From: an uncultured Bacilli bacterium | Lineage (GTDB): Bacteria > Bacillota_I > Bacilli_A > RF39 > UBA660 | NCBI GenBank assembly: GCA_947626095.1 | Contig: CANQQV010000008.1 | Span: 11,906 to 75,905, forward strand | DNA length: 64,000 nucleotides | Direction of reading: 5' to 3' | Shown here: positions 14,650 to 61,345 of the stretch, piece by piece | Layout: every line of letters begins with the position of its first letter | How positions within the stretch are numbered: position 1 is the stretch's first letter | The notes under the pieces: generated by a model | What the model was told of the DNA's origin: nothing | Database searches by the model: none | What the model saw: only the letters and a program-made list of their open reading frames with translations | Program-made: the position numbers and the translations under genes

Positions 14650-14848
14650 AAATAAAAAATAGTTATAACTTAAGGACGAGTAAAACCCGCGGTACCACCT
14701 TAATTTATAACTATTGTTATACCCTTATAATATTTAACGCATATTAACGATTTACTCCCAAGCAACCTTCTTCTATTTTCCATATTCTTTTCCACCAACC
14801 AAGAACTCTCTTTAACTTCTAAATAGAATACTCCTCTTGTTCAACGTA
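14650..14848 (-). promoter_or_regulatory. T-box riboswitch, Val specifier GUU
   Basis: Minus strand: GA motif, AGUA bulge, AG box, GGUUGGUGGAA apical loop, GAAG-GUU specifier, T-box AAGGUGGUACCGCG, then hairpin + U-run. Confidence 0.9.
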
Positions 14849-14952
14849 CTTAAAAGTATTATAAAGCATTAGAAATTTAAAAGCAATAAAATTTTATTGA
14901 GTAAAAATAGTAAATACGTTATAATTATATAAGAATAAAGAGGATTGGTATT

Positions 14953-52960: not shown

Positions 52961-54058
52961 TTACTCAGTAACTTCTTTCTTTTTGTTAACATATATTTTA
53001 AGTAAGTTATAAATAACAGACATGGTAGGAACACCAAATAGCATTCCAAAGACACCACCGACACTACCACCAATTACAACAGCTACAAAAACCCATAAAC
53101 CAGGAAGGCCAACTTTACCACCTACTACTCTTGGATAAATAAAGTTAGTTTCAATCTGTTGTAAAATAATAAAGAAAATAATGAAGATAAGGCTTTCTAG
53201 AGGGCTTACCATAAAGATTAGGAAAGCCGCAATGAAACAACCAATGAAAGCACCAAAGATTGGGATTAAAGCAGTTATACCGACTAAAACAGAAACAGTA
53301 GCAGCATATGGCAAACCAAGAATTAACATACCAGCAAAGCAAAGACTGCCTAAAACGCAAGCTTCAAAAACTTGAACTTTAATAAAATTACTAAAAGCTT
53401 GGTATGACATTTGGCCTAAGTTAATGACAAAATTATAAGTTTTAGTATTACATATTTTTTTAAGAAGCTTTTTAATTTGTCTAGTGAGACGTTCTTTATC
53501 TAGTAAGACATAGATAGCAAAGACAATACCAACAAAGAAATTGCATAATGTACTAAATAAAGAGTTAGCAAAACCCATTGAGAAATTAATTATACGATCA
53601 TAATTTTGAGAGATTAGATTAGTTATCTCCTTTCTTAATTTATTATTTTCTAAATTAAGAATTTCTAATGTTTCTTCTTTTAAACCAATTTTTTGACCTA
53701 AGGAATAAATATTTTGTTGATATTCTGGAATATTTTCGATAAATATTTGACTAGCATTTTTAATCTGAGGAATTAAAATAAAGGACATTATAGCAATAAA
53801 ACCGATAATAATACCAAAAGATAAAATAATACTAGTAACTCTTTTACCTTTATTCATTTTTTTTAATAAACCATCTTCTATCATTTTAAGTAAGACATTT
53901 ATAATAAAAGCGACTATGCTACCTATAATAAATGGCAAAAATAATTTAAAGACAAATTTAAGAATATTACCTATCCAATTGTAATTCATTAAACAGACAA
54001 ATAAAATAATAGCATAGGTAATTAATAATAGTTTATCTTTCATTTCTTTTTTTATCAT
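52961..54058 (-). CDS. AI-2E family transporter
   Basis: LIPIFGAFIG, QQIETNFIYPRVVG, GMLFGVP. Confidence 0.9.
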   Translation of the reverse strand: MIKKEMKDKLLLITYAIILFVCLMNYNWIGNILKFVFKLFLPFIIGSIVAFIINVLLKMIEDGLLKKMNKGKRVTSIILSFGIIIGFIAIMSFILIPQIKNASQIFIENIPEYQQNIYSLGQKIGLKEETLEILNLENNKLRKEITNLISQNYDRIINFSMGFANSLFSTLCNFFVGIVFAIYVLLDKERLTRQIKKLLKKICNTKTYNFVINLGQMSYQAFSNFIKVQVFEACVLGSLCFAGMLILGLPYAATVSVLVGITALIPIFGAFIGCFIAAFLIFMVSPLESLIFIIFFIILQQIETNFIYPRVVGGKVGLPGLWVFVAVVIGGSVGGVFGMLFGVPTMSVIYNLLKIYVNKKKEVTE

Positions 54059-54780
54059 AATACTTCATCCTTTTCTAAAAATAATATCTTATTAACAATT
54101 TTTTTGATAAATACATTATTTATTAATATATATAATACCATAGTTCCAATAATATTTAATAAATAATCGTCAATATCAAAGGCTCCACTATTCATTAAAA
54201 ACTGGCAAAATTCAATACCTATTATAAAAAGGCTACATATAATAAAGAATTTATACCATTTATTAATAAATTTGGTAATTCGTGGTAAGAAAAGGGCTAA
54301 CGGGGTAAAAGCAATTAAATTACCGACAATATTACGCAAAAAGTATTCTAAGCCAACATTACCATTTTGATAACCAATATATAAATTATTAATAGTTTTA
54401 AATGGCGTGGTATTAGCGGTAATTAGAAACTCATTCTTCATAGCTTGATAATCCAAAAGATCACTAAGACTATGATGAATTAAGTAATTACGACCAAAGT
54501 ATTTATCAAATAAAGTTAAATTAAGAATCATGATTAAATATAATATAAACCATATAGTTAGGTTAATTTTAGGTAATTTATGAAAAACCGGATTGTTAGT
54601 CTTCTTTAAGATTAAGCAACCTATATACATAAATAAAACAGCTAAACAAACTATTTTTATACGTTCGGCTGGAGATGAAAGATGAAAAACAGAGAATTCT
54701 AAGAATAAATAGTTAGTTATCAAGATTGTCGCAATAACATAGCAAATTATTCCTAGACAATATTTAATTTTATTGCTCAT
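54055..54780 (-). CDS. VanZ family membrane protein
   Basis: N.TPFKTI, NIVGNLIAFTPL, IEFCQF, FDIDDYLLNIIG. Confidence 0.88.
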   Translation of the reverse strand: MSNKIKYCLGIICYVIATILITNYLFLEFSVFHLSSPAERIKIVCLAVLFMYIGCLILKKTNNPVFHKLPKINLTIWFILYLIMILNLTLFDKYFGRNYLIHHSLSDLLDYQAMKNEFLITANTTPFKTINNLYIGYQNGNVGLEYFLRNIVGNLIAFTPLALFLPRITKFINKWYKFFIICSLFIIGIEFCQFLMNSGAFDIDDYLLNIIGTMVLYILINNVFIKKIVNKILFLEKDEVL

Positions 54781-54821
54781 ATTACACCTCCACTATTATC
54801 AGTATAACAAAAAATTAAGCC

Positions 54822-54856
54822 AAAAAAAAGATATAGCATCTGTCAACGCTATATCT
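54822..54856 (-). terminator. Intrinsic terminator of the putative ncRNA
   Basis: AGAUAUAGCG-UUGACAGA-UGCUAUAUCU followed by a U-run. Confidence 0.85.
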
Positions 54857-55143
54857 CTGGTGGAAAATATCACTAAAGCTATTTGACAGAATAACTTTGA
54901 TGATACTCACTGATCTAAAATCCACCATCGTACGTACAACCTGATAGTTCAGCGATTCATAGACTAGCAATTATTCTTTAGAAAAAACTTATTAAAAATA
55001 AGTTATGGATAACAAATCATTTTTCAGATTGTTATAAGTAATAAATAATTATTACCTGGATATTATTAAAAAATAATATCAATACTATAATAGATTATAG
55101 TATATAAAGAAATAATAACAATATGTCTACTTTACTATCAGGT
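54822..55143 (-). ncRNA. Putative novel structured non-coding RNA (~320 nt)
   Basis: Own promoter and terminator, no ORF in the supplied track; nested long-range stems, five internal hairpins, two loop-loop complementarities (see findings). Confidence 0.75.
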
Positions 55144-55149
55144 ACTACT

Positions 55150-55178
55150 ACTATATCAATTTTTTTGTTTTATGTCAA
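55150..55178 (-). promoter_or_regulatory. Sigma-A promoter driving the putative ncRNA
   Basis: TTGACA-N17-TATAGT with extended TG; predicted +1 near 55143. Confidence 0.8.
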
Positions 55179-55188
55179 TAGGTTTTTA

Positions 55189-55494
55189 TTAATTAATTTC
55201 ATTTTCACGTATTTCTTTAAGACGAGCTTTGACAAGAAGAACTAATTCCATTGGGGCATTGACCTTAGGTAAGACAATTAAGCTATCTTGTAATTTGGTT
55301 TTTAAACTTTTCTCATCGTTTACAAGATCGGCTTCTTTTCGGTAATCAAAATCAGTAATGGGATTATCCTTAATAAAAGATTTGATATATTCTTCAATGT
55401 CTTTTAAGATATACTCTTTTAATTCGTAATTATCCATATCTCTAATACCGTAGTAAGCTCCAACCAAATATCTATATGTATCTTTTAAATCCAT
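55189..55494 (-). CDS. Small helical hypothetical protein
   Basis: 101 aa with AAGGA RBS; lies directly upstream of the ncRNA promoter. Confidence 0.75.
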   Translation of the reverse strand: MDLKDTYRYLVGAYYGIRDMDNYELKEYILKDIEEYIKSFIKDNPITDFDYRKEADLVNDEKSLKTKLQDSLIVLPKVNAPMELVLLVKARLKEIRENEIN

Positions 55495-55565
55495 GTAATC
55501 ACATCCTTTTTTATTATAGCATAATTTTAGAAGAGAAATATGATATACTATTAATGGTGATAGAT

Positions 55566-56564
55566 ATGTTAATTAGAATATTGTTATTAGCTATTCTAAT
55601 CTTTATAAATGGAGTTTTATCAGCTAGTGAAATAGCTTATTTATCGTTAGATAAGTATGCGATAAGTCGTAAAAGAGACAGGAAAGCGAAAAAAATATTA
55701 AAGACGTTAGATGATGAAAGCAAGTTTTTATCAACCATTCAAATTGGTATAACCTTAGCTGGTTTTTTGGCAAGTGCTTTTGCATCAGAGACATTTACAG
55801 ATATATTAATTGAAGATTATGGAATTTATTTTGTAAGTGTTAACTTTACAGAAAATGTCTTAATGATAGTTATTACATTAATTTTATCTTATATTACTTT
55901 AGTGTTTGGTGAATTAGTGCCAAAGAAAATTGGGCGTTCTAATCCACTTAAAGTCGCTTACTTAACAATTGATTTAATTTCTTTGATTGCTAAATTGTTC
56001 TATCCTTTAATTATTTTATTAACCTGCTCTACCGAGTTAATATGTAAGATATTACATATTAAAGAACATGATGATTCGTTAACAGAAAAAGATATTAAAA
56101 GAATGATAATTACGGGTAGTAAAGAAGGAATCGTTGAAGAAAAAGAAAAAGAATATATTTTAAATATCTTTGAATTTAATGATAAGAAAGCTAGTAAGAT
56201 TATGACACCAAGGGGTGAAATAACTTGTTTAGATATTAATGATACTAAAGAAGAAATAATTAAAAAAATTAAAAATCATCATTATACACGTTATCCGATT
56301 TTAAAAGATAATGAGGTTGTTGGGTATATTAATATTAAAGATTTTATTTACCTACATCAAAATAAGAATTTAAAAATAAAAGATATTTTACATAATGCTT
56401 TGTTTTTTGATAAGAATGAAAAGATAGATGATATTTTTAGAATGATGCAAGAGAATCATGAAACGTTTTCAATTATTACGGATGATGATGAATTTATCGG
56501 CATTTTAACAATGGAAGATGCAATTGAAGAAATCGTTGGAAATATTGAAGATGAGTACAATTAA
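55566..56564 (+). CDS. CNNM/HlyC-CorC family protein (DUF21 + CBS), lacking C-terminal CorC domain
   Basis: NGVLSASEIA, STIQIGIT, VFGELVPKK, IMTPR, YTRYP, GILTMEDAIEEIVGNIEDE. Confidence 0.9.
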   Translation: MLIRILLLAILIFINGVLSASEIAYLSLDKYAISRKRDRKAKKILKTLDDESKFLSTIQIGITLAGFLASAFASETFTDILIEDYGIYFVSVNFTENVLMIVITLILSYITLVFGELVPKKIGRSNPLKVAYLTIDLISLIAKLFYPLIILLTCSTELICKILHIKEHDDSLTEKDIKRMIITGSKEGIVEEKEKEYILNIFEFNDKKASKIMTPRGEITCLDINDTKEEIIKKIKNHHYTRYPILKDNEVVGYINIKDFIYLHQNKNLKIKDILHNALFFDKNEKIDDIFRMMQENHETFSIITDDDEFIGILTMEDAIEEIVGNIEDEYN

Positions 56565-56572
56565 AAAAGCTG

Positions 56573-56956
56573 TTATTTATTAACAGCTCTTTTATTTTCT
56601 CTTTTTAGCCATTCCATGATTAAAGCGACAATGTAGTTTTGTTCATTAGAAGTTAGTTCACGACCTTTCGGAATATGATGCCATTTGGCTAGACAACTAC
56701 GACAACAAGTAGCAGTAGCATGCTGAGCAATAAAGACAGGATGGTTTTTCATTGGTGTTTGGGCCCCATCATTAAGAGGATTCGCTGGTGCTAACTTGTT
56801 AAGAATAAAGTCTTTAGCATGATCTTTGATGACGTTATAACCTTTATCATTTAAGTAAGCTAGTTCTTTTTTACGCAGATGAAAACTACTTCTAAACTTA
56901 GACTTACTTAATACTTCTAGTTTGTTAGCAATAATCGATGCAGCTTGATTATTCAT
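56573..56956 (-). CDS. DUF4186 family protein
   Basis: SKFRSSFHL, NDGAQTPMKNHPVFIAQHATATCCRSCL.KWH. Confidence 0.88.
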   Translation of the reverse strand: MNNQAASIIANKLEVLSKSKFRSSFHLRKKELAYLNDKGYNVIKDHAKDFILNKLAPANPLNDGAQTPMKNHPVFIAQHATATCCRSCLAKWHHIPKGRELTSNEQNYIVALIMEWLKRENKRAVNK

Positions 56957-57362
56957 CTTTACTACCTAAATCTTCTGCAAATCTAAGTAAATAACCATCT
57001 GGATCAGTGACTAAGAATTCTTTATTACCTAGTAGTTTATCATCTTCTCGATACCAGTTTTCTTCGATAGGAAATGCTATTTTATAACCACTTTTACTTA
57101 AATTATCGTATATTTCTTGGACATTTGAAACTTCTAGTTGGAAATTAATCCCACGACCAAATGGATATTCTAACTTACCTATTTGCCATTTATCATTGGG
57201 AGTTATCTCTTGAAGCATAAATTGAATCTCACCTAAAGAGATAAAAACAAATAAATCTTCTTTTCGCTCATATTCAATCTTAAAGCCGCATGTTTGATAA
57301 AACTTAAGAGAAGCTTGTAAGTCGCTTACTGATAACTCGGGAATATTTTTATTAAAATACAT
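56949..57362 (-). CDS. VOC/glyoxalase/bleomycin-resistance family protein
   Basis: PELSVSDL..SL.FY, PFGRGINFQ, EFLVTDPDGYLLRF. Confidence 0.88.
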   Translation of the reverse strand: MYFNKNIPELSVSDLQASLKFYQTCGFKIEYERKEDLFVFISLGEIQFMLQEITPNDKWQIGKLEYPFGRGINFQLEVSNVQEIYDNLSKSGYKIAFPIEENWYREDDKLLGNKEFLVTDPDGYLLRFAEDLGSKDE

Positions 57363-57364
57363 CT

Positions 57365-57727
57365 CTATAATTCTTTTTTCCAAAGACCATGTTTATTGCA
57401 GTATTCATAGATTGTCATTCCTTTTTCATAGTCAAAAACAGCTTCAGGGCTTTCGCTTGGTTTAAAGTAATATTTTATAATAGAGTCACTGTATTCAGCA
57501 GCAATAAAGTTAATGTAATGGTCTTCTTCCATTGGATGAGGTACTTCTCCTACTCTAACATATACTGTGTCATCTTCAATTTGAACATAGGGTACATGTT
57601 TTTCTTTAGCAGCATCAACAGTATTAGCTACAACTTCATCCATAGCTTCACCACAGCACATAACAGTGCAATTTTCTTCTAACATTTCAATAAGTGTTCC
57701 ACACTTGGCACATTTAAATAATTTCAT
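57365..57727 (-). CDS. Desulfoferrodoxin / superoxide reductase
   Basis: CxxC...CCGE, EKHVP, HPM..DHYI, YCNKHGLW. Confidence 0.93.
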   Translation of the reverse strand: MKLFKCAKCGTLIEMLEENCTVMCCGEAMDEVVANTVDAAKEKHVPYVQIEDDTVYVRVGEVPHPMEEDHYINFIAAEYSDSIIKYYFKPSESPEAVFDYEKGMTIYEYCNKHGLWKKEL

Positions 57728-57765
57728 TTTAATCCCTCCTCTTTTATTTTATCACAAAAAAGATT

Positions 57766-58644
57766 CTATTTTGTAGAATCTTTTTCAATTGGATTAACGT
57801 GAATTACAGTCAGGTATATTTCAGGTATTTTTTTATCTATTTCTTTTTCTAAATCATTAGCTATTTTATGGCTTTCATAGGTAGATAGATTACCATCGAC
57901 AAAGATGGAAAAACTTACTTGATATAAATAACCAACTGGGGTGGCGTTAAAATGATTTATTTTAACAATATCTTTATATTCTTTAATAATTTCTAAGACT
58001 TTATCTTTAGTATCGTTAGATATAGTTTTATCCATTAGAACATCATAACTAGCAATAAAGATTTTAAGACCAGTAAAGATAATCCATAATGATATTAAAA
58101 TACCAACGATACTGTCAACAAAGTAGATACCAGCTAATGAGAATAAAGTAGATATTAAGTTGAAAGTAGTCAAGAAGATGTCGTTACGATGATCTTTACT
58201 ATTAGCTTCAACTAGTAAATTATTATATTTTTGACTAACCTTTTTGGTATATAAAAATAATAATAACTTAGTAATAATAGTTATGATGCAGACAATGACT
58301 AACCAAATGGTAAATTCATAATTACTCTTAATGAATAAGGCAATAACAGAGTCCCAAAGAATTTTAAGCCCTAGAACAATCATGGTTATACTTATTAGCA
58401 TCGAATAGATATATTCAGCTTTACCATGACCTAAGTTATGATCTTCATCAGCAGCTTTACTAGATACTTTAGTACCAATGTATGTCATAATAGAACTTAA
58501 AATATCAGATGCACTATTAAAAGCATCAGCAAGCATAGCTTGACTAGAAGATATTAAACCAACGATTATTTTAATTATAAATAAAAAGATATTGCCAACT
58601 ATTCCTAAAATACTGGCTCTTTTAGCTTCTTTAAAACGATTCAT
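57766..58644 (-). CDS. Cation diffusion facilitator transporter
   Basis: AMLADAFNS.SD, HNLGHGKAE, DHRND, VIHVNP. Confidence 0.92.
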   Translation of the reverse strand: MNRFKEAKRASILGIVGNIFLFIIKIIVGLISSSQAMLADAFNSASDILSSIMTYIGTKVSSKAADEDHNLGHGKAEYIYSMLISITMIVLGLKILWDSVIALFIKSNYEFTIWLVIVCIITIITKLLLFLYTKKVSQKYNNLLVEANSKDHRNDIFLTTFNLISTLFSLAGIYFVDSIVGILISLWIIFTGLKIFIASYDVLMDKTISNDTKDKVLEIIKEYKDIVKINHFNATPVGYLYQVSFSIFVDGNLSTYESHKIANDLEKEIDKKIPEIYLTVIHVNPIEKDSTK

Positions 58645-58684
58645 ATTAACACCTCTTTTAAGGACTTATTAATTATATCATATA

Positions 58685-59416
58685 TTAACTTAGTGCAACA
58701 TCTAAAATCATCATAATGATAAAACCAAGGATAAAACCAAGAGTATTGATATGGTTATCTTCGGTTGATTCAGGGATAAGTTCAACGATAATAACGTAAA
58801 TCATCGCACCAGCAGCAAAAGCTAATAAATATGGTAAGATAATACTGACGATATTAGAAAATATTAAAGTAATAATAGCGCCCATAAATTCAAATAAAGC
58901 AGAGATAATCCCATAGAAGAAAGCTTTACTTTTACTCATTCCTTTATTTTTTAAAGGTAAGGATACAATTAAGCCTTCGGGAATATTTTGAATAGCAATA
59001 CCAATAGCTAAAGCATAACAAGAAGTTAGAGTTACGTTATGGTATAACATAAAGCTTGCAAAGATAATACCGACGGCACAACCTTCAGGAATATTATGTA
59101 AGGTAATGGCTAACATTGTTTTATCAAGATTCTCATTAATATTTATTTTTTGTTTATTAAGTAAAGAGTCGATAAAAAAGAAAAAGATAATACCAATAGC
59201 TAAACCAATTGTAGCTGGTAACCAAGTAGGACTTTTACTCATTTCAATAGCAGGAATTATTAAAGACCAGATAGAAGCGGCCATCATAACACCGGCAGCG
59301 AAACCCAAGATTATTATTTCTAATCTTTTGGATAATTGATTTTTAATAAAATAAACCATTGCGGCACCTAGTGTAGTACCTAGAAAAGGTATTAGTATTC
59401 CAATTAATACATTCAT
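58685..59416 (-). CDS. ZIP family metal transporter
   Basis: GFAAGVMMAAS, TLHNIPEG, QNIPEG, AAGAMIYVI..ELIPE. Confidence 0.93.
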   Translation of the reverse strand: MNVLIGILIPFLGTTLGAAMVYFIKNQLSKRLEIIILGFAAGVMMAASIWSLIIPAIEMSKSPTWLPATIGLAIGIIFFFFIDSLLNKQKININENLDKTMLAITLHNIPEGCAVGIIFASFMLYHNVTLTSCYALAIGIAIQNIPEGLIVSLPLKNKGMSKSKAFFYGIISALFEFMGAIITLIFSNIVSIILPYLLAFAAGAMIYVIIVELIPESTEDNHINTLGFILGFIIMMILDVALS

Positions 59417-60081: not shown

Positions 60082-60708
60082 TTATAACACATTTTCAGGA
60101 TTCTTGGGACCGTAAGTTAAAGAGATATCTTTATCTTTTATTCCCTCTTTTTTAAATTCAGTTACTAGACTACTTATTTTTTCTAAAGTTTCTTGAGTTA
60201 AATGGCATTTATCAATATCTTCAATAGGTACGATATAACCGTTTTCACCTACTTCTTGATCATAATATTTAAATTGATTAATATTTTGTAGGTAGTAATC
60301 TGTAGCAAATATTTCACTTAAATCATCAGCTAAAACAGCTAGATAAAGTTCGTTGTATAAATAATATAAGACTTCACCTAATAATATTAATAAAGTTAAA
60401 ATAATTTTGATTATGATGTGAATATCAACATTAAAAACAACAATACTTGAAATAATGCCACCAATAATAGCTAAAAAACGTTTTAAGTAGACTTTAAAAC
60501 TATCTTTAGCAATTGTATCATATGCGTAATCCATATTGTCTTCAGCTTGTTTTTCCATACGGATACGATAAAAATTCAAATTATGACGACTTAGTTTTTC
60601 TGTGGATTCATGACCATCAGCATATTTAATAGTCATTGTATCGGCAGCTGTGGTAATGTCAATAATAAAATCTTTTTCTTCTTGTTCATTTCTAGCAAAA
60701 TCTATCAT
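60082..60708 (-). CDS. Hypothetical 2-TM protein (paralog of downstream-numbered neighbour)
   Basis: Shares MID..N..E.KD.FI, IKYA, MEKQ and TM hairpin with 60713-61345. Confidence 0.75.
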   Translation of the reverse strand: MIDFARNEQEEKDFIIDITTAADTMTIKYADGHESTEKLSRHNLNFYRIRMEKQAEDNMDYAYDTIAKDSFKVYLKRFLAIIGGIISSIVVFNVDIHIIIKIILTLLILLGEVLYYLYNELYLAVLADDLSEIFATDYYLQNINQFKYYDQEVGENGYIVPIEDIDKCHLTQETLEKISSLVTEFKKEGIKDKDISLTYGPKNPENVL

Positions 60709-60712
60709 TTTA

Positions 60713-61345
60713 TCAACTCAATTTCATTCTCTTTTGTAAAACTTCCATAGTCATTTTACTCTGTTCTTCTTTGACCTCATCATTTAAACCTTTAGCTAAT
60801 TTACCAACTAACTTTGGTTCGTAGACCATTTCAATATTAGACAAGGTAAGTAAATACCAATCTTTTTCTTCACCACTTACAGGGTCAGTTATTTTGATTT
60901 TAAATTCTTCTTTGTGTTTTAAAAACTCATCGGCTGTAGCTATAACACGTAAATTATTTTCATTATTTTCAGCAAGGTCAGCTTGGCTTTTTTGGTAACA
61001 TATGGAAATAACGGCAATAATAGCTATTATAAGAATTTGAAGAAATCTTGGCATTTCTATTTGACAAGTTAGATAAAGACTAGCGACAGCAACTAAGGCT
61101 TCAATTAGTTTATTAACAGTTGTTCTTTTTATTTCTTTAAAGGACTTTTCAGCACATGAATCACGATATTCTAAATATTGTTTTTCCATTTGCGTAAGAG
61201 TTTCATTTAATTTTTCAATAGAAAATGGAACAACTTCGAGACGATCAGAAGCATATTTAATAACGTAATCATTAGAATTTTCTTTTAAAGCTACACATAA
61301 TATAAATTTATCTTTATCTTCTTCTTTATTTGTAATATCAATCAT
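60713..61345 (-). CDS. Hypothetical 2-TM protein (paralog of 60082-60708)
   Basis: GAGG RBS; same architecture as neighbour. Confidence 0.75.
   Translation of the reverse strand: MIDITNKEEDKDKFILCVALKENSNDYVIKYASDRLEVVPFSIEKLNETLTQMEKQYLEYRDSCAEKSFKEIKRTTVNKLIEALVAVASLYLTCQIEMPRFLQILIIAIIAVISICYQKSQADLAENNENNLRVIATADEFLKHKEEFKIKITDPVSGEEKDWYLLTLSNIEMVYEPKLVGKLAKGLNDEVKEEQSKMTMEVLQKRMKLS

What the first reader, a model, noticed from the sequence alone, without database searches (positions are those of the whole stretch)
54839..54955. Two pseudoknot/kissing-loop pairings in the RNA, one involving the terminator loop
Seen: the internal-loop strand UCGCUGA of domain 1 (54955-54949) is complementary to the bulged UCAGUGA of domain 2 (54913-54907), which would lock the two domains together. 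The loop region UCUGUCAA (54890-54883) is the exact 8-nt complement of the terminator loop UUGACAGA (54846-54839). Inference: either a compact tertiary fold protecting the 3' end, or a switch that modulates termination and read-through into vanZ and the AI-2E transporter (riboswitch or antiterminator-like).
Basis: partly seen in the sequence, partly recalled or inferred. Interest (0 to 1): 0.7.

Follow-up and report, generated by a model that had tools for sequence, protein, structure and literature searches.

The report
New self-pairing dimeric bacterial noncoding RNA
The two pairings are real, but they belong to a stand-alone noncoding RNA of gut bacteria that matches no catalogued RNA family and appears to assemble as a pair of molecules, with duplicated copies having evolved into matched partners that fit each other rather than themselves.

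Summary
Both complementarities are present and conserved. They lie in a ~322-nt minus-strand RNA (55143-54822) with its own promoter and terminator, no Rfam match, found in 24 of 26 other genomes of the genus and in 12 other genera of the family (order RF39). It is not a riboswitch for vanZ: downstream genes vary or are convergent, copies occur in tandem with separate promoters, and no antiterminator competes. In genomes with several paralogs the linkers lose their symmetry and match another paralog, and 'pseudoknot 1' follows: in 18 of 18 such copies it pairs better with the partner than with itself. So pairing 1 is most likely an intermolecular bridge of a domain-swapped dimer; five-copy genomes encode two heterodimers plus one homodimer. 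Pairing 2 is a 5-6 bp kissing loop with three kinds of compensatory change, cis or trans unresolved. Dimerisation is inferred from sequence only; biological function is not shown.

The parts
55150..55178 (-). sigma70/sigmaA-type promoter, TTGACA-17-TG-n-TATAGT
   Evidence: 11 of 12 consensus matches, best site of 21 in the region; a like promoter precedes the homologous units
54822..55143 (-). whole predicted ncRNA, ~322 nt; start inferred 7 nt after the -10 box, at the first base of P1
   Evidence: fold z = -8.35; longest ATG-started frame 37 codons; homologs about 290-595 nt
55134..55143 (-). P1 5' strand ACCUGAUAGU (family consensus ACUUAAUAG)
   Evidence: 10-bp helix with 54948-54939; two-sided changes at 2 of 10 pairs in 4 close homologs; consensus 9-mer in 35 of 54 units with a called start
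54956..55133 (-). domain 1: AU-rich multi-hairpin insert (five hairpins here), variable in length and sequence between lineages and paralogs
54949..54955 (-). pairing 1, 5' strand UCGCUGA (internal loop above P1)
54939..54948 (-). P1 3' strand ACUAUCAGGU
54928..54939 (-). self-complementary inter-domain linker UUGUACGUACGA (WC core GUACGUAC 54937-54930): predicted intermolecular duplex
   Evidence: self-duplex -15.3 kcal/mol
54858..54927 (-). domain 2: P3 (54927-54921 with 54864-54858) and P4 (54906-54867)
54907..54913 (-). pairing 1, 3' strand UCAGUGA (bulge between P3 and P4)
54884..54889 (-). P4 loop CUGUCA, kissing partner
54822..54856 (-). P5: intrinsic terminator hairpin with loop UGACAG (54845-54840) and U8 tail
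   Evidence: the one terminator-like site in 54000-56000
54801..54809 (-). extended -10-like element TG-T-TATACT, probable separate promoter of vanZ (54780-54055)
   Evidence: sequence; kept in the 3 close homologs; such a motif within 120 nt downstream in 38 of 56 copies against a shuffled mean of 9 (promoters of tandem copies count among the 38)

Best explanation
A stand-alone, separately transcribed structured noncoding RNA of RF39 Bacilli that assembles as a domain-swapped dimer. Shown from sequence: promoter, P1 closing a variable domain 1, a self-complementary linker, domain 2 (P3/P4), terminator hairpin P5, and two conserved long-range pairings. Inferred: two molecules anneal through their linkers (8-14 bp, antiparallel), which places domain 1 of each beside domain 2 of the other, so pairing 1 forms twice, in trans. 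The P4-P5 kiss packs the 3' hairpin, or links molecules further. After duplication, linker and pairing-1 strands co-diverged into mutually exclusive codes giving heterodimers. Most likely role (a guess, about 0.4): an abundant stable scaffold whose conserved core displays two variable domain-1 arms to proteins or other ligands. Confidence: stand-alone ncRNA with both pairings 0.95; dimer with pairing 1 in trans 0.85.
For: Linker: WC palindrome of 8 nt or more in 23 of 26 single-copy genomes (18 of 21 distinct linkers) against 4.4% in shuffles and 6.5% in domain-1 windows, but in only 9 of 30 copies from multi-copy genomes; perfect central tetramers ACGU, GUAC, GCGC, AUAU, AAUU (UAUA once) in 28 single-copy genomes, which a hairpin loop would not need. 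In the five genomes with 4-5 copies the best partner by summed duplex energy is mutual for 23 of 24 copies (the exception is in a 64%-complete genome); the partner chosen by linker alone equals that chosen by pairing 1 alone in 21 of 24; for all 18 copies whose best linker partner is another copy, pairing 1 is better in trans than in cis. Example: G011 L109 x L110, 11 WC bp in the linker, 10 and 9 WC bp in the two reciprocal pairing-1 helices, while L110 with itself scores -8.0 against -36.2 kcal/mol. A partner predicted in writing for G021 and G026 was found. Kiss: 5 or more WC bp in 73 of 81 distinct cores, with compensated variants at three positions. Context and terminator tests.
Against: No experiment; energies are for isolated strands. 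In single-copy genomes such as this one, sequence cannot tell cis from trans for pairing 1. The heteropairs trace to at most five origins, since the paralog types of G011/G016/G021/G026 form shared clades, and the confirmed prediction reflects that shared descent. A stricter test (three separate best-partner calls all agreeing) held for 9 of 24; Mantel tests gave p = 0.008, 0.017, 0.017, 0.15, 0.42. One G007 copy has a better linker with itself (-16.3) than with its partner (-11.5). In G012 and G019 only the linker, not pairing 1, discriminates. No protein partner or function was found.
Confidence: 0.8

Rival explanations
1. Monomeric structured ncRNA with two intramolecular pseudoknots; the linker symmetry has another cause (small hairpin, or a palindromic DNA site for a protein).
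For: In single-copy genomes pairing 1 is self-compatible (mean -8.0 kcal/mol) and looks sterically possible in cis if the linker stays single-stranded (inference). A monomer may be the folding intermediate.
Against: The central four bases stay self-complementary while changing identity; many variants are symmetric only with G-U pairs; paralogs that lost symmetry gained complementarity to a sister copy in both linker and pairing 1. A hairpin or a DNA site explains none of this.
Confidence: 0.1
2. Cis-acting riboswitch or attenuator controlling read-through into vanZ and the AI-2E transporter.
For: Promoter upstream, terminator 40 nt before the vanZ ribosome-binding site; VanZ follows in 11 and AI-2E in 4 of 42 downstream ORFs; 4 of 56 copies have an alternative fold within 5 kcal/mol.
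Against: Unrelated or convergent downstream genes, tandem arrays with separate promoters, a likely separate vanZ promoter, no antiterminator in the window (+12.8 kcal/mol), kiss confined to the loop and relocated off the terminator in five copies.
Confidence: 0.03
3. The dimer is only the first layer: the P4-loop kiss is also intermolecular and builds higher oligomers or cages, as in ROOL and GOLLD.
For: In subtype B the UGACA partner lies 1-2 nt from the base of the P4 stem whose loop it should pair with, which looks impossible in cis (inference). Kissing loops first read as tertiary proved intermolecular in ROOL and GOLLD (PMC12286853, passages).
Against: The kiss shows no paralog-specific code; subtype B could refold instead; only two or three interfaces per chain are visible, against five or more for the cages.
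Confidence: 0.3

Closest known systems
ARRPOF RNA (RF02933)
   Same: Similar size (255 nt), several pseudoknots, domain-swapped homodimer with a 12-bp intermolecular helix and pseudoknots that alternate between cis and trans (PMC12990946, section 5).
   Different: No match to RF02933 at this locus; ARRPOF is plasmid-borne in Fusobacterium (PMC5737381, passage), whereas this RNA lies among chromosomal-type genes and had no homolog in the plasmid collection; the passages read describe no paralog heterodimers.
OLE, ROOL and GOLLD RNAs
   Same: RNA-only multimers of Firmicutes held by kissing loops; switching between palindromes in OLE L9.3 is the published form of the argument used here (PMC12286853, passages).
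   Different: Those are 550-830 nt homo-oligomers. OLE is a separate gene in this genome. No Rfam match here.
Transcriptional riboswitches with kissing loops (cobalamin L5-L13)
   Same: A loop-loop contact involving the 3' hairpin; dimers through that kiss are described.
   Different: No consistent downstream function, no competing antiterminator, no Rfam aptamer match.
Retroviral dimer initiation site; phi29 pRNA (recalled, not tested)
   Different: Those are viral; no match in viral or phage collections.

Membership tests
Any Rfam 15 family | Covariance-model score at the gathering threshold | tested here: not met
   Window: only a T-box at 14669-14853; region and homolog loci gave nothing at threshold and only chance-level E-values
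ARRPOF | Match to RF02933 | tested here: not met
   4 sub-threshold matches (best 12.8 bits, cut-off 127), none at this locus
ARRPOF | Domain-swapped dimer with an intermolecular helix | not testable with these tools
   Supported indirectly
OLE RNA | Match to RF01071 | tested here: not met
   The genome's OLE match is on another contig
RNase P, 6S, SRP, tmRNA | Being the genome's housekeeping copy | tested here: not met
   Each found elsewhere in the genome
Transcriptional riboswitch/attenuator | Always 5' of co-oriented, functionally related genes | tested here: not met
Transcriptional riboswitch/attenuator | Antiterminator competing with the terminator stem | tested here: not met
   +12.8 kcal/mol in the window; median 9.1, 4 of 56 under 5 (pseudoknots not modelled)
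Transcriptional riboswitch/attenuator | Ligand-dependent termination | not testable with these tools
   Needs in vitro assay
RNA-only multimers (OLE/ROOL/GOLLD kind) | Conserved intermolecular interfaces with palindrome switching | tested here: met
RNA-only multimers (OLE/ROOL/GOLLD kind) | Oligomer observed physically | not testable with these tools
   Needs mass photometry or cryo-EM
Guide/template RNAs of RNA-protein systems (OMEGA, retron, DRT; recalled) | A linked nuclease or reverse transcriptase gene | tested here: not met
   None among the 53 of 89 flanking ORFs scanned with Pfam or 14 window ORFs; neighbours differ between loci

The most novel reading that the evidence does not exclude
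A new class of bacterial ncRNA that works as an obligate dimer and whose paralogs have evolved an orthogonal base-pairing code (linker plus two swapped helices) that sorts them into specific heterodimers, each bringing two different variable domains together: the RNA counterpart of homomer-to-heteromer evolution in protein complexes, seen in up to five origins, with two lineages both showing 'two heterodimers plus one homodimer'.
Probability: 0.55. Interest if true: 0.92.

Novelty: new variant of a known kind. Interest (0 to 1): 0.84.

Why it matters
Natural RNA quaternary structures are few and almost all homo-oligomers; the review passages read list as heterodimers only RNA-ligand, splicing-intermediate and in vitro evolved cases (PMC12990946). 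Here comparative sequence alone points to paralog-specific heterodimers, which gives genetic evidence that the assembly is under selection in vivo, a contested point for OLE/ROOL/GOLLD-type RNAs. The family is small (300-600 nt) with a ~135-nt core and natural orthogonal interfaces, so it makes testable how RNA homomers turn into heteromers and offers ready-made programmable RNA dimer modules. It is also a caution that covarying 'pseudoknots' can be intermolecular.

Tried and rejected
Known families: Rfam, RNase P, 6S, SRP, tmRNA, OLE, ARRPOF. Upstream 101-aa orphan gene (55494-55189) as protein partner: adjacent in much of the genus, but present in 21 of 149 family genomes, only 5 of them among the genomes where the RNA was found, and no RNA in any of 20 loci around it; confident helical model (pLDDT 95.7) with no clear fold match (best Foldseek E 0.89, best Z 6.1). 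Mobile location: no match in viral contigs with two patterns or in phages; plasmids gave 23 short AT-rich Borreliella matches over 21% of the query, in domain 1, taken as chance. Antisense target of domain 1 in the own genome: only 14-22-nt AT-rich matches. Exact pattern from the closest homologs: 0 of 300 family genomes, too strict. Outside the family: 2 marginal hits in a class-wide sample of 150, rejected by eye as ORF ends with ordinary terminators; 2 further marginal family hits (E about 0.09) were not inspected. Two of 27 metagenome loci were not members. Expression: two runs with small shares; the near-identical contigs laid fell only on the RNA (54908-55125 in X1; 54889-55082 in X2, with three contigs of relatives on the 3' core), none on the flanking genes; contigs show neither strand nor level and X1 may be DNA, so this is a weak hint only. 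Earlier scan notes: nothing found.

Full report
Observation. They lie in the intergenic region between a 101-aa orphan gene and vanZ, on the minus strand, between a near-consensus promoter (55178-55150) and the only terminator-like hairpin in 54000-56000. The region folds far better than shuffles (z = -8.35) into P1 closing a five-hairpin domain 1, a single-stranded linker, domain 2 (P3, P4) and the terminal hairpin P5. Taken alone, pairing 1 could be chance (6.6%) and pairing 2 hardly (0.2%).

Family. BLAST over 60 relatives gave three full-length homologs and a fourth, diverged and syntenic. Covariance models built in three rounds found the RNA in 24 of 26 other genomes of the genus, in 1 to 5 copies, and in 10 of 148 genomes of other genera in each of two overlapping family samples, 12 genera in all. 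These are lower bounds: only 21 candidates per genome were scored there, and default filters missed both copies in one true locus (against 96, 105). A class-wide sample gave no credible member outside the family. A metagenome pattern scan returned 27 loci, 25 of them members. A record title names Candidatus Coprovivens for a sequence identical to one copy of the same genus, a genus placed in order RF39 (PMC8035907, one passage). Units with a called start begin with a promoter and the consensus ACUUAAUAG; lengths run from about 290 to 595 nt, the difference lying in domain 1. Several genomes carry tandem arrays of complete units, up to five.

Pairing 2 (kiss). Of 81 distinct cores, 73 have 5 or more WC pairs between the P4 and P5 loops: 64 keep CUGUC(A)/(U)GACAG, 6 have CUGACA/UGUCAG, one CUAUCA/UGAUAG, one CGUCA/UGACG, one UGUCA/UGACA. 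The conserved count is inflated, because the metagenome pattern and the models contain this motif; the compensated variants, at three different positions, are the unbiased evidence. Three cores keep 4 contiguous pairs. In five (subtype B) the terminator loop has lost the match, and UGACA appears instead just 3' of P4, so the P4 loop keeps a partner even when the terminator is not involved.

Pairing 1 and the linker. On 35 copies pairing 1 has two-sided changes at 5 of 7 pairs (related sequences, so shuffle counts are not probabilities). The linker after P1 is a WC palindrome of 8 nt or more in 23 of 26 single-copy genomes, against 4.4% of shuffles, and in 9 of 30 copies of multi-copy genomes. 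With G-U allowed the count is 27 of 28, but the background is then about 25%. The central tetramer changes while staying symmetric; the same reasoning was used for the OLE L9.3 bridge (PMC12286853, passages). In multi-copy genomes the asymmetric linkers match sister copies, and the two strands of pairing 1 match crosswise between the same sisters. Numbers: mutual best partner 23 of 24; linker-only and pairing-1-only partners agree 21 of 24; trans better than cis 18 of 18; Mantel p 0.008-0.42; the strict three-way test 9 of 24. The two-copy genomes G012 and G019 show the switch in the linker only; the two copies of G003 share one palindrome; the two of G107 carry different self-complementary linkers. 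A written prediction of unseen partners in G021 and G026 was met, but the tree shows these paralog types are inherited together with those of G011 and G016, so at most five origins are in hand: two in that clade, two in G007 (whose five copies were neither shown nor rejected as one clade, p-AU 0.156), one in G012/G019. G007, G011, G021 and G026 each resolve into two heteropairs and one self-pairing copy, one G007 pair only narrowly.

Mechanism. Inference: an antiparallel linker duplex puts P1 of one molecule next to P3 of the other, so pairing 1 forms across the dimer, twice. The window's genome gave one copy (91% complete), so it would form a homodimer. Whether the kiss is cis or trans is open; subtype B geometry hints at trans. 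Function is not shown. The invariant P1 sequence and the variable, subtype-specific domain 1 suggest a stable scaffold presenting two arms; that is a guess.

Not a leader of vanZ. Downstream ORFs (42 scanned; three listed downstream ORFs and most upstream ones were left out, 53 of 89 in all) include 11 VanZ, 4 AI-2E, and DnaE, S12, RNase J, NUDIX, a P-type ATPase and others; four genomes have a convergent gene next. A separate extended -10 element follows the terminator. No antiterminator competes (three of the 56 units were folded with a truncated 5' part).

Comparison and novelty. It works most like ARRPOF (PMC12990946, passages and section 5) but is not a member, nor OLE (RF39 OLE variants in PMC11332333, passages). 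I found no description in print with these searches: (listings); 10.64898/2026.07.01.735769 (first of five parts); 10.64898/2026.10.21.760802 and 10.64898/2026.09.22.753630 (term passages); PMC8040213 (motif search in 8 supplementary files, 2 further files not searched); PMC5737381 (one passage). The library lacks most subscription papers, and preprint supplements were not seen; the core motif may sit unnamed in such large catalogues. The dimer code is the part least likely to have been noted.

Verdict. Observation confirmed; riboswitch reading rejected; a new ncRNA family with strong comparative evidence for domain-swapped homo- and heterodimers, untested at the bench. Interest 0.84.

Noticed in passing
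L079:5527-5880, L081:7584-7943, L084:5929-6290, L086:7727-8080: Subtype B copies share a conserved domain-1 sequence (GAGUGGUGC...GGUCCUCA...CUCAGUACUUU...GCUAAUGACUAAAUU) unlike the AU-rich domain 1 of other copies; it may be a functional module. No Rfam match.
   Followed up: partly
L070-L075, L078, L083, L085 domain 1; window 55026-55019: A UUGAAAGAUA motif recurs in the long domain 1 of this subgroup, and a UGAAAAAU loop in the window; resembles a T-loop (recalled).
   Followed up: no
L080, L087, L105 versus L103, L104, L106, L107, L109, L110, L111: The A' P4 loop CUGUCC (L080, L087, L105, L108) matches the GGACAG terminator loop of types C/C' better than its own AGACAG; a possible link between different dimers.
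   Followed up: no
window 55494-55189: Conserved 101-aa orphan protein, 336 relatives, no Pfam family, confident five-helix model without a clear fold match.
   Followed up: yes
window 55476-59416: Cluster of metal- and stress-related genes: CNNM/CBS, DUF4186, glyoxalase, desulfoferrodoxin, CDF and ZIP transporters.
   Followed up: no
window 60082-61345: Two adjacent ~210-aa membrane-type proteins with similar N-termini and no Pfam match; a look-alike follows vanZ in G018 and G023.
   Followed up: no
window 14669-14853: T-box leader on the minus strand.
   Followed up: no
L090: OLE RNA in this genome, 239 bits over 486 nt, in the score range of the short 'variant 2' of PMC11332333.
   Followed up: no
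G194:C5:13818-14114, G195:C1:106985-107269: Homologs of the orphan gene with internal stop codons.
   Followed up: no
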